Positions 27,001 to 42,000 of a DNA stretch of 64,000 nt are shown here, in pieces. The position numbers are program-made. The stretch is from a bacterium (GTDB taxonomy: Bacteria > UBA10199 > 2-02-FULL-50-16 > JAJFLM01): the NCBI GenBank assembly GCA_965216315.1, contig CBDCFN010000016.1, forward strand, positions 416,001-480,000. Direction: 5' to 3'. Every line of letters starts with the position of its first letter. Position 1 is the stretch's first letter.

Positions 27001-30000
27001 CCGCATCGTTCCTTCGTTCCCTGATATGATGAAAAAAGATGTAAGCGTCAAGAATATCGATATTAAAGATCTCTTGAAGAGAAAACCCAATGATTTAGAT
27101 GAAGTGATGATCAAGAAGTTTATTAAAGATAGAGCCATGTTGATTACAGGTGCGGGGGGGTCAATAGGTGCGGAAATGGCAAGGCAATGTATTAAGTACG
27201 GTGCCAGAAAATTGGTATTAGTCGATCAATCAGAATATAATTTATATTCACTTCAAGAAGAGCTAGAATCATCAAACATCTCAATTAGATATTGCTTGAG
27301 TGATGTTCTTTGTAAGGAGAGTCTTGAAAAAATATTTTCAGAAGAGCGGCCTTCGATCGTATTTCATGCAGCGGCGTATAAGCATGTACCTATAGTCGAG
27401 GACAATGTTTTTACGGGAGTTAAAAATAATGTTCAAGGTACGATTAATGTGGCGGAATTAGCACAAAAATACGACGTTGAAAAGTTCGTTCTGATCTCTA
27501 CAGACAAGGCTGTAAGGCCGAGTAGCGTTATGGGGGCGAGTAAGAGAGTTGCAGAGCTCTATGTGCAGAATATGGATCCTCGAGGCTCAACGGAATTTAT
27601 CGCAGTGCGATTCGGAAATGTTCTGGCCAGCTCAGGTAGCGTTATTCCAAAATTTATTGAGCAAATCAATGAAGGGGGACCGGTTACGGTTACGCACCCC
27701 GACGTGACTCGCTATTTCATGCTGATCAATGAAGCTGTGCAGCTCGTCTTGCAAGCTGCCAGTATTGGGCATGGGGGAGAAATATTTATTCTGAATATGG
27801 GGAGTCCGATTCGAATTTCCGAAATGGCTGAGGACCTGATCTTTTTGGCGGGCAGGCAGCCGCATAAAGATATAAAGATACTATATACTGGCTTGCGACC
27901 AGGTGAGAAGTTATATGAGGAATTATTAATTGATGAGACGGAGAAGAAGACTCAATACGAAAATATCACAATAGGGCGCGCTATCTATTTGGACTGGGGT
28001 TCGTTGAAAAAAAATATTCAGCTTCTTAGTGAGGCCATCGAGACGCATAATAGAGGGAGATTATTGAACACATTGAGGGTGCTTGTTCCGGAATTTGCTC
28101 ATGAATCGTTCGAGGGGCCTCTTAAGGGTGCCAAGGTCGTTGCGTTGCCTCTGCCATCTTAAGTAATTATTATTGACAGTTTTGAGGGAGTGGCATTGTG
28201 CCCGCGAGAACTTCGCGGGCACAATTATTATTAATGATTTCTTCCGAAGTCAGTGAGCGGTTATAGACAGCAACATCATCCAGTAACCCATGAAAATTAT
28301 ACTGCGTAGCTGTTGGCGCACCACTGAGATCAACAGAGCCACCTATCCGGTTGTCAATTGAACTCAAAGTTGTCCCATTTAGATTGTCATAAACTGGAAT
28401 TGAAGCTAATTCGGCACCACCTAAGAAGAACTTAGCACCAGAAGCTAAAGTGCTGCCATCGTAAGTTACGGCGACACTTTGCATAGTGCCTGGAGCAGCG
28501 AAAGTCATCATTGAGTCAATTCTAAGGCGGTTGTCTGCTGAATTATCGCTGGTGTAAACAAAGTTTAGGTGATCGGAAGCATCGTAACCGAACCAGAAAC
28601 CCCTTGAAAGAGATGGATTTGTATAGTCAGCATTGCTGAGTATCGTATGATCAGAGCCGGCTGAATCGCGTCTTGTCCATGCCTCAATGCTGAAAGCATC
28701 TGTCGAGTCAAAATTAAAGACATTGCCGATAGTGATGAAATCATTTACGCCGTCAAAGTTTACAGCGCCTCCTACATGACCTTGTGTCCATGCGACAGCA
28801 AGATTAAAATTAGTCAAGGTTCCGCTATTCCCTACGCTGCTTGAGTCAATAGCAGTACCTCCTGCCCCATCATCCATTCGCCACCAGCCTATCAATGAAT
28901 TATCGGTCGAGAAGCCCGCGATATCACTGTAATTGGAAAAGGAAGCATCACTATAAACCGTTCTAACTTTCCAGTAGTACTGTGACGAAACAGCGAGCGA
29001 ATCAATAACATCGTATTGAGTCGTAACCTGTATAGCGTTTGGGCAAAGATCAGGTCCGTCTATCGATGGCAGTCCTTGAGATGATTGGCATACTTGATAT
29101 CCGCTAATGCTTTTTTCATTTACAGGTGGGAGCTCGCCATCCTGCCAAAATAAGAAGGCCCGTGTTGGAGTCAATTGGGCTCCATTTATTGGGCGAAGAA
29201 TTGCGGGCGTTCCATCAAATGGGGTTCCTGCATCTACACTGCCAGCATCTGTCCCCGTATCCGTTGTGTCTCCATCTGTTGAGCCATCTGTTCCGCCATC
29301 AGTGCTGGAGCCAGCAATGAAGGGATCGCTAAAACACCCGACTGTCATCATTGATAAGGCGATTGGTACCAAGAGTAGCGAGTTGTGTGCTGTGTGAGCT
29401 GAAGCCATTACTGTGCTTGAGCCATGTAATGACGAATTTATCGAGGTGGTGCAGGCTAACATCTGAAACTCCTCAAGGATTATTTACTGACAAATTAATG
29501 GCAACGGGCTAGATCCGGCTAAGGCCTCACGAGAACAAGTTTCATTGATGACTTCAGGAAGAGTCAGTACTCGGGAATATACAGCTACATCATCGAGGAC
29601 ACCATCAAAGTTGTAGAGGGAAGCGAGTGGCATTCCAGATGTATCAACAGAGCCACCAAGCCGCGTCGGAGCTGAGTTGAGGGTTGTGCCGGACAGATTA
29701 TCATTGGTTAGAGTCGTAGCATCTTCAACGCCATCAACGTACATTTTAACGCCTGAGGCTGAAAGCGAGCCATCGTAGCTTAAGGCCACATGATGGGGTG
29801 TCCCAGCGCCAAATAGAGTTGTTGAATCAACCCTGATTTGATCCCCCGTACTATTATCACTATTAAGAGTGAAATTAAGATTGCCTGAGGCAATAAAGCC
29901 GAACCAGTAGCCACGCTGCAATGTAGAATCAGTATAATCGGTTCTACTGATAATCGTATCATCAGTACCAGTGGATTGGCGGTTAGTCCATGCCGAGATC

Positions 30001-39000: not shown

Positions 39001-42000
39001 ACAGTTGTAGAATCGATGCGGAGTCGGTTACCCGTACTGCTGTCACTCACCAAAAAGAGGTTGAGGGTGTCAGTAGAGCTAAAGCCAAACCAATAACCTC
39101 GTTGCAGGACGGGATCCGTATAATCGGCCCGTGCAAAGATAGTATGGTCAGCGCCGACCGACTGGCGGTTGGTCCAAGCCGAGATGGTAAAGGGGGTGGC
39201 TGAGTCAAAATTTAAGATATCACCGAGTTCCACAAAGTCATTGGCACCGTCAAAACTTAGGCCTCCGCCGACAAGGCCTGGATTCCAGGCGGTTGAGGTA
39301 TCAAAATTAGTCAGGGTGCCGTTATTGCCCGCACTGCTGGAATCACTGGCTGTGCTGCCGGAACCTTCATTGAAGCGCCACCAACCGAGCAGAGAATTAT
39401 CAGTCGAGAAGGAACGCACGGGGCTGTAGTCCGTACAGTCGGTTCCGCCCGCATCGTAACAGGTCTGGACCTTCCAGAAATGACTCTGAGCCGGGCTTAA
39501 GGGGTCAATCACGCGGAAACGATTGGTGTCGATGGTCTCATTGGGGCACTCGGTAGTGTCATCGACATCGGTCATGGCCGTGGCATGACAGGAGCGATAC
39601 CAGGTAGAGGCGCCACCTGGGATGACGCCGTCTTGCCATGACATGAAGGCGCGCGTGGGCGCGAGGAGTTGTCCGTCAGCCGGCAACGATTGCGTCGGGA
39701 TGTGATCGGATGGATAACCGGTACCACCGTCTTCGGCATCGCCGGCGTCACCCGGACCGCCATCCATATCGGCATCCGGACTTGCATCGAGGATGGGGCC
39801 TCCATCGGGGCCGCCATCACCACCATCAGGTCGCGGCGGAGCGGTGCCGCTTCGGTCTAAGAAGCAGCCACTACCGAACAGGGCGAGCAGGCCCCCAATC
39901 ACAAAAGCGGGTATGGCTAAGGCAGAGCGGCGGAGCCGCTGCCGGCTTGGCTCACTGAATAAACGCGTCAGCCCAGAATCCGGAGAAACGGGCTCTAGAG
40001 ATATTTGGGTTGGCGCCGAAATGTCAGCTTGAGTCTGGAGGCCAGTTGGCGCTGGTGATACAGAACTCGCTAAGATGGGCTGAGCCGATAGCAGAAAAGA
40101 CGTTGTCTGACTTATTAGGTGCATGGGTTCTCCAATTCACTCAATTAGTCGCACCTAATTAAGTCTACCCATTCATCGCTCATCCCGGTAAAAAGTTGTG
40201 CCTTTTTGGATTGGCGCCTAACTCATTGAAAATATTTGATATTTGAGCTTTTAAAAGTGAAGTAAAAGACGAGGGCAAAGCCCCAACCGGCGAGGACGTC
40301 GATGAAGTAATGGTGATTCAAGTAGACGGCCGCAAATGCGGCCAAGGCGGCATAGAAATGGAAACACCAACGAAAATGCCCCATTATTCTATGGGCGTAG
40401 CAGGCAACCAGCAGGGGGAATGCGGCATGCATGGAGGGAATAGCGCCGAAGACCCAGGCACTGCGTGCATAAGTATTCTGGAAGTGTTCAAAACCGATCA
40501 AATTATCGAAACGAATCAGGCCTGCTGCGGAGCCAGGAATGGCCCAGCCGACCTTGGCAAAGCCATGAGTGGCTACATACCAAGGTGGCGCGGATGGATA
40601 GGCGATGTAGGCAATGAATGCAAAGAGATTCATGAAGAGAAATGCCCAGCGGAAATTATTGAAATAAGGAGAGCGTCTGATCCACAAGTAGAGTGCAAAG
40701 CCGATTGGAATAACTACGTGAGCGGCATAGACAGCCCCAGTAATGATGTCGAGGATATCATTGTTGTGTGCCATGAAGTAGTTCGTTGGAATAAAGCCCT
40801 TATGAAATCCGATGACTTCAAATAACGCGGCTTCAATGCGGTATGGGCTTTCAATGTGAATTGCACCGGCCCAGTCTTTGGGGAAGATGCGGAGTAGATC
40901 GTAGAGAATGCCGAAGAGTGCAAAAGGAAAAAAATCGATCACCCAACGACGTGTCTGCTGGTGGGTTAGATAGAGCCCAATCATGCAGCTGATGAGTAGG
41001 GCGTGTTCCCACCGAAGCCCAATGCTGAGGCTGATGAGACCTAGATAAGCCAGCCAGAAACAAGGAAACCAGCTTTGTTTCAGTATGTTCTCCATAATAG
41101 AGGCGTACAGGTAGCGTTCGAATCCATGCCTGTCAATGGCGAGCCCGGCAAATCCCTGAGCGGCGTGAGTTTGCTAACATTGTGATATTACTATAGATTT
41201 GCTATTCTACCTTTATGGCACAGACAGCTTCACAGCGGGTATCACCTCGAGCTGAACTCCTGGAACTCCAGAAAAAAATCTTCCAGCGTAATGAGCGCAT
41301 TATACGCACGGAGGCGATTGTGGAAGAACCGGGTTTTGCACTCTATGAACGGCGTTATAAAAAACAAGTTGCTGATTTTGAGCGGGCGGCCCGAGTTGAA
41401 GATGTACTGAAGGCGATTGAGGCCGCCGACATTATCTATCTCGGCGATTATCACACCAATCCGCAATCTCAACGGACTTTACTACGTTTATTGAAACTCG
41501 TTTCAGGTCGGATTCCTCATCTCGCGCTGGGATTGGAACTCGTTAAAGATACACATCAAAAGAGTCTAGATCGGTATTTGGCGAATAAAATCGGAGCTGC
41601 CACGTTTTTAAAGAGAATTGAATTCAAGAAGTATTGGTACTTTGATCTGTGGGATAATTTTAAGCCGATCTTCGACTTTGCTCGCTACCATCGCATTCAG
41701 GTCTATGGAATCGAATCCGCGAAGGTGCAAGATAAGGGCCTCAAAGTTCGCGATGAATATTCAGCGGAGATCATTGCAAAAATTATCGAAGCACAGCCTG
41801 ATTTAAAGCTCTTTATTTTTGTAGGTGACTTGCACATTGCCCCTCAGCATCTGCCAAGAGAAGTCGATAAAGCATTGGTTAGACGAAAGCTCGAGCGTAA
41901 ACGATTGCTCATCTATCAGAATAGCGAGAATATTTATTGGAAGCTGGCGGAACAACGACGTGAGGAAAAAGTTGAGATCGTTCGAGTGGACCAGGAAAGC

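What a model noticed while it worked through the whole genome (the two positions that open the first line are those of the whole stretch)
28170..40124. Export signal stacked in front of a complete lipoprotein signal peptide
At least 10 cargo proteins carry, 40-95 residues in, a second signal (mostly basic stretch, hydrophobic core, lipobox Cys) behind the L-A-S leader; six are in the tandem array of eight laminin-G paralogues. This fits export first and lipidation afterwards by a recipient bacterium's Sec/Lgt/Lsp.
Evidence so far: g00944, 945, 946, 949, 950, 951, g00672, g01051, g02021, g02437; g01682 shows leader plus RR-type lipoprotein signal after start correction. In g00946, g00949 and g00951 there is no ATG and no SD-led GTG/TTG between the first Met and the lipobox, and a sigma-28 promoter lies 51-64 nt before the first Met. 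The strict scan found 8 among regulon proteins against 26 of 1843 others.
(Added by a program. Inside this text positions count along the whole contig: contig position 416,001 is position 1 of the stretch shown here. "Call 12" and the like, gene names such as g00115 and contig names such as C1 are that model's own, and its searches are not shown. The text may have been shortened before it was handed on; [...] marks where a part breaks off. The agent that wrote the report below was given it as the finding of a first reader that could run no searches.)

Follow-up and report, generated by a model that had tools for sequence, protein, structure and literature searches.

The report
Lipoproteins with two stacked export signals
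An uncultured bacterium puts a short tag, shared with about a hundred probably injected proteins, in front of the normal lipid-anchoring signal of some surface proteins, which suggests, without proving it, that it injects them into another bacterium and lets that cell anchor them in its own envelope.

Summary
Six of eight tandem Fn3-LamG genes carry an uncharged S/T/L/A leader, a spacer, a hydrophobic core and a Cys at residue 43-92; the other two have leader and signal merged (Cys 26, 28). The extension is translated: no SD-led start lies near any signal, pN/pS is 0.5 between two paralogues, and 7 of 21 homologues elsewhere keep the long layout. Three further unrelated families do the same, one with a twin-arginine signal behind the leader in five genomes. 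Internal signals occur in 8 of 113 leader proteins against 7 of 686 others. These signals are less hydrophobic than the cell's own 85 lipoprotein signals and are followed by D[AG]G tethers that those lack. That a recipient bacterium matures them is inference (about 0.5): the cell has its own Lgt, LspA, Tat and type II secretin; its type III cluster has no secretin or needle; leader-driven secretion is unshown. The scan had noted the promoter regulon and the array before, not this layout on other DNA. No precedent was found in eight paper searches.

The parts
28170..29462 (-). Paralogue 1 (g00944), 430 aa; leader, short spacer, signal, Cys43 (codon 29334-29336); weak case, SD-less ATG 24 codons before the Cys
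29484..30947 (-). Paralogue 2 (g00945), 487 aa; stacked signal, Cys92 (30672-30674)
30967..30991 (-). sigma-28-type promoter motif, 19 nt before g00945
31049..32479 (-). Paralogue 3 (g00946), 476 aa from the ATG at 32479; stacked signal without basic stretch, Cys86 (32222-32224)
32543..32567 (-). promoter motif, 63 nt before g00946
32665..33888 (-). Paralogue 4 (g00947), 407 aa; merged leader and signal, Cys28
33891..35165 (-). Paralogue 5 (g00948), 424 aa; merged leader and signal, Cys26
35195..35219 (-). promoter motif, 29 nt before g00948
35272..37032 (-). Paralogue 6 (g00949), 586 aa from the SD-led ATG at 37032; stacked signal, Cys92 (36757-36759); long Asp-rich tether
37084..37108 (-). 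promoter motif, 51 nt before g00949
37198..38643 (-). Paralogue 7 (g00950), 481 aa; stacked signal, Cys87 (38383-38385)
38667..40124 (-). Paralogue 8 (g00951), 485 aa; leader 1-22, spacer, basic stretch, hydrophobic core, Cys87 (39864-39866), D[AG]G tether to about 135, Fn3/Ig-like domain about 140-241, LamG domain about 245-465
40175..40199 (-). promoter motif, 50 nt before g00951

Best explanation
These are two-stage secretion substrates. Step 1 (shown): a sigma-28-type promoter drives genes whose products begin with an uncharged leader. Step 2 (inferred): the leader routes the unfolded chain to the cell's type III export apparatus, as it would for about a hundred soluble kinases, cyclases and enzymes that carry the same leader, and the chain reaches the cytoplasm of a bacterium that the cell attacks or lives on; the conduit across the outer membranes is unknown. 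Step 3 (inferred): there the second signal is read after translation by the recipient's Sec (or Tat, for the twin-arginine family), the Cys is lipidated by Lgt, and LspA removes leader, spacer and signal in one cut. Step 4 (inferred): the disulfide-bonded Fn3-LamG lectin-like module is displayed on a flexible tether in the recipient's envelope, as a docking receptor for the attacker or as a mark or coat on an occupied cell; gene conversion within the array varies it. The moderate hydrophobicity of the second signal would help it escape the producer's own SRP.
For: Leader is a peptide signal: all synonymous codons are used in the L-A-S motif. 114 proteins fit my leader rule; of 137 leader or promoter proteins scanned, 41 have a Pfam family, mainly cytosolic bacterial types (histidine kinase, receiver, GGDEF, class III cyclase, Ser/Thr kinase, FHA, carboxylase, PFK, GDH), none ankyrin, LRR, F-box or U-box. 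A tag shared by cytosolic enzymes and by lipoproteins should act before the two fates part. The same promoter also drives ordinary lipoproteins with no leader (10 read by eye among 29 hits in 245 promoter genes), so the leader is not needed to make own-envelope lipoproteins at that stage. Type III export genes sctV, J, L, N, O, P, Q, R, S, T and a FliA-like sigma lie in one cluster, sctU elsewhere; an SctV/FlhA-family gene is in 60 of 61 genomes searched. Cys invariant in 16 aligned LamG proteins; long layout in 7 of 21 homologues outside this genome. Leader followed by S/T-R-R-x-F in G000, G001, G010, G051 and T-R-R-E-A in G002; no Met before the RR in G001, G010, G051. Hydrophobicity score median +0.36 for 12 stacked signals vs -1.48 for 85 own signals; five families vs own p=0.003; 15 of 21 homologues above zero vs 10 of 85 own (scale recalled from Hessa 2005, kin not independent). 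Two or more D[AG]G after the box: 7 proteins in the genome, 6 of them stacked cases from two families, 0 of 85 own lipoproteins. Type III membrane effectors are known to sit just under the SRP threshold (PMC6110835, abstract and section 7).
Against: No secretion or lipidation data; no RNA holder listed. Own Lgt (2), LspA, TatC (2) and a type II secretin are present. The type III cluster shows no secretin or needle and RcpC (Tad) was not found, so export might end in the cell's own periplasm. g00945 and g00946 have cores as hydrophobic as own lipoproteins (-1.56, -1.87). 14 of 21 homologues and 2 of 8 paralogues have the Cys at 19-36, an ordinary length. Only 1 of 10 boxes is strict. HisD is present and ilv/leu genes were seen, so this marker gives no sign of host dependence. 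No recipient is identified. The leader set is defined by my own rule, which penalises charge.
Confidence: 0.5

Rival explanations
1. Own-cell lipoproteins with a long n-region: the producer's Sec or Tat, Lgt and LspA mature them, and its type II system or Lol displays them as attack-stage adhesins; the leader only times, holds or degrades the precursor.
For: Complete own pathway. Merged forms have normal length. Lectin-like LamG adhesins make sense on an attacker's surface; best fold match is the lectin pilin PilC, though with low TM-score. Tat can read internal RR signals in a cell's own proteins (PMC9360617, passage). One non-leader lipoprotein has its Cys at 40.
Against: Own lipoproteins have the Cys at 15-35 by construction of my list, 83 of 85 at or below 29, stronger cores and no D[AG]G tether; leaderless lipoproteins sit under the same promoter; the leader would be cut off and wasted yet is kept in four families and several genera.
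Confidence: 0.28
2. Injected membrane effectors that are not lipidated: the hydrophobic core is an uncleaved anchor (Tir- or Inc-like), in a bacterial or eukaryotic host.
For: Two cases (g02437 and C15:334057) have a second membrane segment and basic residues after the Cys, a hairpin. Boxes are mostly non-strict. Moderate hydrophobicity is typical of such effectors (PMC6110835).
Against: Cys invariant and preceded by G/A/S in nearly all homologues; conserved twin-arginine motif in one family; no eukaryote-type domains in 137 proteins.
Confidence: 0.11
3. Relic: promoter-plus-leader cassettes were fused onto captured lipoprotein genes, and the inner signal is a leftover.
For: Spacer length varies from 0 to about 120 residues; the array is mosaic.
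Against: Core and Cys are kept at 30-45% overall identity while the sequence turns over; pN/pS 0.25 over the signal between two paralogues (27 codons only).
Confidence: 0.07
4. Wrong start calls: translation begins near the signal and the extension is untranslated.
For: g00944 and g01682 have SD-less Met codons near the signal; database protein P0075 is called from an inner Met.
Against: No start codon at all in g00949; no SD-led one near the signal in the other five; pN/pS 0.5 over 60 codons; leader conserved in G001, G051 and metagenome proteins.
Confidence: 0.04

Closest known systems
Type III-secreted membrane effectors (SseF, Tir, SipB; Krampen et al. 2018, PMC6110835, abstract and one results section read)
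   Same: Two incompatible targeting signals in one chain; second signal of moderate hydrophobicity; Tir is a receptor placed in the host membrane for the attacker
   Different: Host is eukaryotic, anchor is uncleaved, no lipobox or Tat motif; injectisome has secretin, needle and translocon
VgrG3 of Vibrio cholerae (re-export from the recipient's cytoplasm; seen only as a one-sentence mention in PMC8406194, primary paper not read)
   Same: Delivered to a bacterial cytoplasm and then moved to the periplasm
   Different: Type VI spike fusion, cell-wall toxin; no cleavable lipoprotein signal reported in the passage
Ssp2/Ssp4 needing the recipient's DsbA (PMC7690452, passages)
   Same: Effector matured by a housekeeping enzyme of the target bacterium
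   Different: Disulfide formation in the periplasm, not export and lipidation
Needle-less T3SS* of Myxococcus xanthus (PMC12075869, PMC10433427, passages)
   Same: Export apparatus and sorting platform without secretin or needle; acts on bacterial prey; substrates unknown
   Different: Works with the Kil Tad pilus, for which no RcpC was found here; here a sigma factor sits in the cluster and candidate substrates share a leader
SitA lipoprotein toxins moved by outer membrane exchange (PMC10433427, passages)
   Same: Lipoproteins ending up in another bacterium's envelope
   Different: Lipidated by the donor, carry nuclease toxins, need TraA/B
Bipartite chloroplast transit peptides (recalled, no call)
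   Same: Uncharged S/T-rich first signal followed by a Sec or twin-arginine signal read in the next compartment
   Different: Within one eukaryotic cell; no lipobox; analogy only

Membership tests
Sec/SPase II lipoprotein signal peptide | Basic n-region before the core | tested here: inconclusive
   net +2 to +3 in 4 of 6 window cases, 0 and -2 in two
Sec/SPase II lipoprotein signal peptide | Uncharged hydrophobic core | tested here: met
   all six; weaker than own lipoproteins in four
Sec/SPase II lipoprotein signal peptide | Invariant Cys after G/A/S | tested here: met
   invariant in 16 aligned proteins; 20 of 21 outside homologues have G/A/S before it
Sec/SPase II lipoprotein signal peptide | Strict [LVI][ASTVI][GAS]C box (definition from PMC6930937, passage) | tested here: not met
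   1 of 10 cases; own lipoproteins 40 of 85
Sec/SPase II lipoprotein signal peptide | Signal at the N-terminus (Cys within about 35 residues) | tested here: not met
   Cys at 43-92 in six window proteins
Sec/SPase II lipoprotein signal peptide | Lipidation and LspA cleavage | not testable with these tools
   needs labelling or mass spectrometry
Tat lipoprotein signal (g01682 family) | S/T-R-R-x-F-L motif, core, Cys | tested here: met
   S/T-R-R-x-F-L in G001, G010, G051; T-R-R-Y-F-I in G000; T-R-R-E-A in G002; consensus recalled
Type III secretion substrate | Signal in the first 20 or so residues, S/T-rich and low in charge (recalled) | tested here: met
   composition and motif; low charge is partly built into my rule
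Type III secretion substrate | Export apparatus in the same genome | tested here: met
Type III secretion substrate | Secretin, needle and translocon of an injectisome | tested here: not met
   none in Pfam scan of 23 cluster proteins (7 had no family); the one strong secretin lies in a type II cluster
Type III secretion substrate | SctN/SctV-dependent export; chaperone binding | not testable with these tools
   uncultured organism; one small TPR protein in the cluster could be a chaperone
Myxococcus Kil/T3SS* predation machine | Associated Tad pilus | tested here: not met
   RcpC family not found in a 98% complete genome; one marker only
SitA lipoprotein toxins | C-terminal nuclease toxin domain | tested here: not met
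   only Laminin_G_3 above cut-off in all eight

The most novel reading that the evidence does not exclude
A whole class of uncultured bacteria injects unprocessed preprolipoproteins, by a type III-derived machine, into the cytoplasm of other bacteria, whose Sec or Tat, Lgt and LspA anchor them; the attacker thus installs its own variable lectin-like receptors in the host envelope, with tethers shaped to the host's lipoprotein sorting.
Probability: 0.4. Interest if true: 0.9.

Novelty: new variant of a known kind. Interest (0 to 1): 0.72.

Why it matters
If true, it is an undescribed way of decorating another bacterium's envelope, and the strongest sequence hint here that needle-less type III systems reach a bacterial cytoplasm, an open question in Myxococcus predation where no substrates are known (PMC10433427, passages). 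The layout gives a direct assay: the leader and the inner signal can each be tested in laboratory bacteria. Even under own-cell processing, these genes are routinely mis-started by gene callers and have unusually long lipoprotein signals.

Tried and rejected
Sigma-70 scan: 15 sites vs 16.3 in shuffles, uninformative. Search for the tether region alone found only the query, so the recalled likeness of D[AG]G tethers to myxobacterial lipoproteins is untested and no host is named. Atlas hits were all under 0.9: Fn3/Ig-like for the middle domain, beta-propeller-like for g01682, leads only. NCBIfam gave only sub-cut-off TafC matches. Fold search gave generic LamG sandwiches at TM 0.27-0.37. Leader swap in family f4: six f4 homologues have a different, Cys-containing N-terminus and a weak core with Cys at 100-108, but none of the 21 promoter loci of G027 showed that N-terminus (8 gave no ORF), so a general f4 leader is not shown. 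The idea that the cell lacks Tat or Lgt was rejected. Papers PMC10395195 and PMC6899460 (passages) use engineered Tat fusions and are no precedent. Dropped before counts: 4 of 118 rule hits as ordinary Sec signals; 23 of 145 own-lipoprotein hits by eye and 37 for lack of an SD; 2 of 139 proteins not scanned against Pfam.
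Full report
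The locus. Window 28170-40124 holds eight minus-strand genes of 407-586 aa, each with one Laminin_G_3 domain. A model of g00951 (mean pLDDT 74, 16-sequence alignment) is disordered over residues 1-134, then shows a beta-sandwich (about 140-241; Fn3/Ig-like by Atlas leads) and the LamG sandwich. Four Cys are invariant in 16 aligned family members: the signal Cys, two in the Fn3-like domain and one near the C-terminus, which points to folding outside a cytoplasm (inference). Paralogues share identical DNA blocks of up to 578 nt, so they are not independent cases.

The promoter and the leader. RCAACWWYT-N12-CGAW-type sites number 82 against 8-13 in shuffles; five lie in the array, and the other three genes follow their neighbour by 2-23 nt. 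Many downstream proteins start with an uncharged S/T/L/A stretch ending in (L/V)-L-A-S near residue 14-17; the motif uses all synonymous codons. My rule gives 118 proteins, 114 after dropping four ordinary signals.

The stacked signal. Six window proteins have the Cys at 43-92 behind the leader, two at 26 and 28. No SD-led start lies 14-36 codons before any of the six Cys, and g00949 has no start codon at all in the extension. Between g00950 and g00951, pN/pS is 0.5 over codons 1-60 and 0.25 over 61-87; two cross-genus comparisons gave 0.42 and 0.78 on short, gappy alignments. Of 21 homologues outside this genome, 7 have the long layout (Cys 62-97) and 14 the merged one (Cys 19-36); by eye none has the Lys-rich start typical of the cell's own lipoproteins. 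Enrichment among leader proteins is 8 of 113 vs 7 of 686, with no excess deeper in the proteins, and 4 of 98 vs 5 of 684 by family. Of those five, I judge one credible.

Other families. g01682 carries leader, twin-arginine motif, core and Cys; the four closest orthologues of 20 loci examined (G001, G002, G010, G051) keep this, and three have no Met before the RR. More distant members have other N-termini, some short and some ordinary. g00672 and g02021 are one family; several homologues lack any such signal, while four in family f4 have a different N-terminus and a Cys at 100-108. A new case lies at C16:95626. g02437 is a probable hairpin and g01051 has its Cys at 143.

Who reads the second signal. 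For a recipient: the leader is shared with cytosolic bacterial-type kinases, cyclases and enzymes (41 of 137 proteins with a family, none eukaryote-type); leaderless lipoproteins exist under the same promoter; the stacked cores are weaker than 85 own signals (recalled scale), as type III membrane effectors are (PMC6110835); and D[AG]G tethers mark six stacked proteins of two families but none of the 85. Topology also requires that the second signal be read from a cytoplasm, so export into the cell's own periplasm followed by lipidation is unlikely (established knowledge of Lgt/LspA; PMC9360617 passage). Against: own Lgt, LspA, TatC and a type II secretin; no secretin, needle or RcpC to carry cargo out; two cores are as hydrophobic as own ones; most homologues have ordinary length; boxes are mostly non-strict (1 of 10 vs 40 of 85); HisD is present. 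Sequence alone cannot separate the producer's Sec from a recipient's.

Known systems. Eight paper searches (mostly listings and abstract starts, nine papers opened for passages or one section, no supplements) gave no secreted effector with a cleavable lipoprotein or Tat signal for a target bacterium; subscription papers are largely outside the library. Nearest are dual-signal type III membrane effectors, VgrG3 re-export, DsbA-dependent effectors, SitA and the Myxococcus T3SS*. The proteins work like dual-signal effectors but fail the N-terminal-position and strict-box tests for ordinary lipoproteins and the injectisome test for ordinary type III substrates.

Verdict. Real, conserved and undescribed layout; recipient maturation is the best single explanation at about 0.5, own-cell processing at about 0.28. 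New variant of a known kind on what is shown; interest 0.72.

Noticed in passing
window 28170-40124: Paralogues share identical DNA blocks (578 nt between g00948 and g00949; 227 nt between g00945 and g00946), consistent with recent gene conversion.
   Followed up: partly
window 465-28162: Polysaccharide biosynthesis cluster at 40.6% GC converging on the array (50.4% GC).
   Followed up: no
window 40223-41095 and 43643-44956: PAP2_3 membrane enzyme and myo-inositol-1-phosphate synthase close together, possibly inositol lipid synthesis.
   Followed up: no
window 51587-54787 (+): 1066-aa protein with the same leader and no Pfam family.
   Followed up: no
window 45168-45509 (+): 113-aa gene with a strong promoter motif but a charged N-terminus.
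   Followed up: no
G000 C16:2163562-2185600: Run of promoter-driven genes with a second, Cys-containing type of N-terminus; similar starts occur in G051 and in f4 lipobox proteins.
   Followed up: partly
L083:201-3545 and L046:201-1205: Leader, then core-Cys-second membrane segment hairpin and a basic stretch, an Inc-like layout.
   Followed up: partly
L085:201-7532: 2444-aa leader protein with an internal core and Cys at 143, long coiled coil, partial PP2C match and a C-terminal kinase.
   Followed up: partly
G000 C15:336725, C15:309001, C16:716894, C16:2115270: Further merged leader-and-box proteins with Cys at 26-28.
   Followed up: no
L277: sctU lies alone, about 445 kb from the type III cluster, beside rpsB.
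   Followed up: partly
L260 and L267 (G051); P0014: Leader-like starts joined to signals ending in A-x-A, by eye; P0014 seems to carry one before its lipobox.
   Followed up: no
G000 C16:1905574-1911004: Two lgt genes flank ileS and lspA in one cluster.
   Followed up: no
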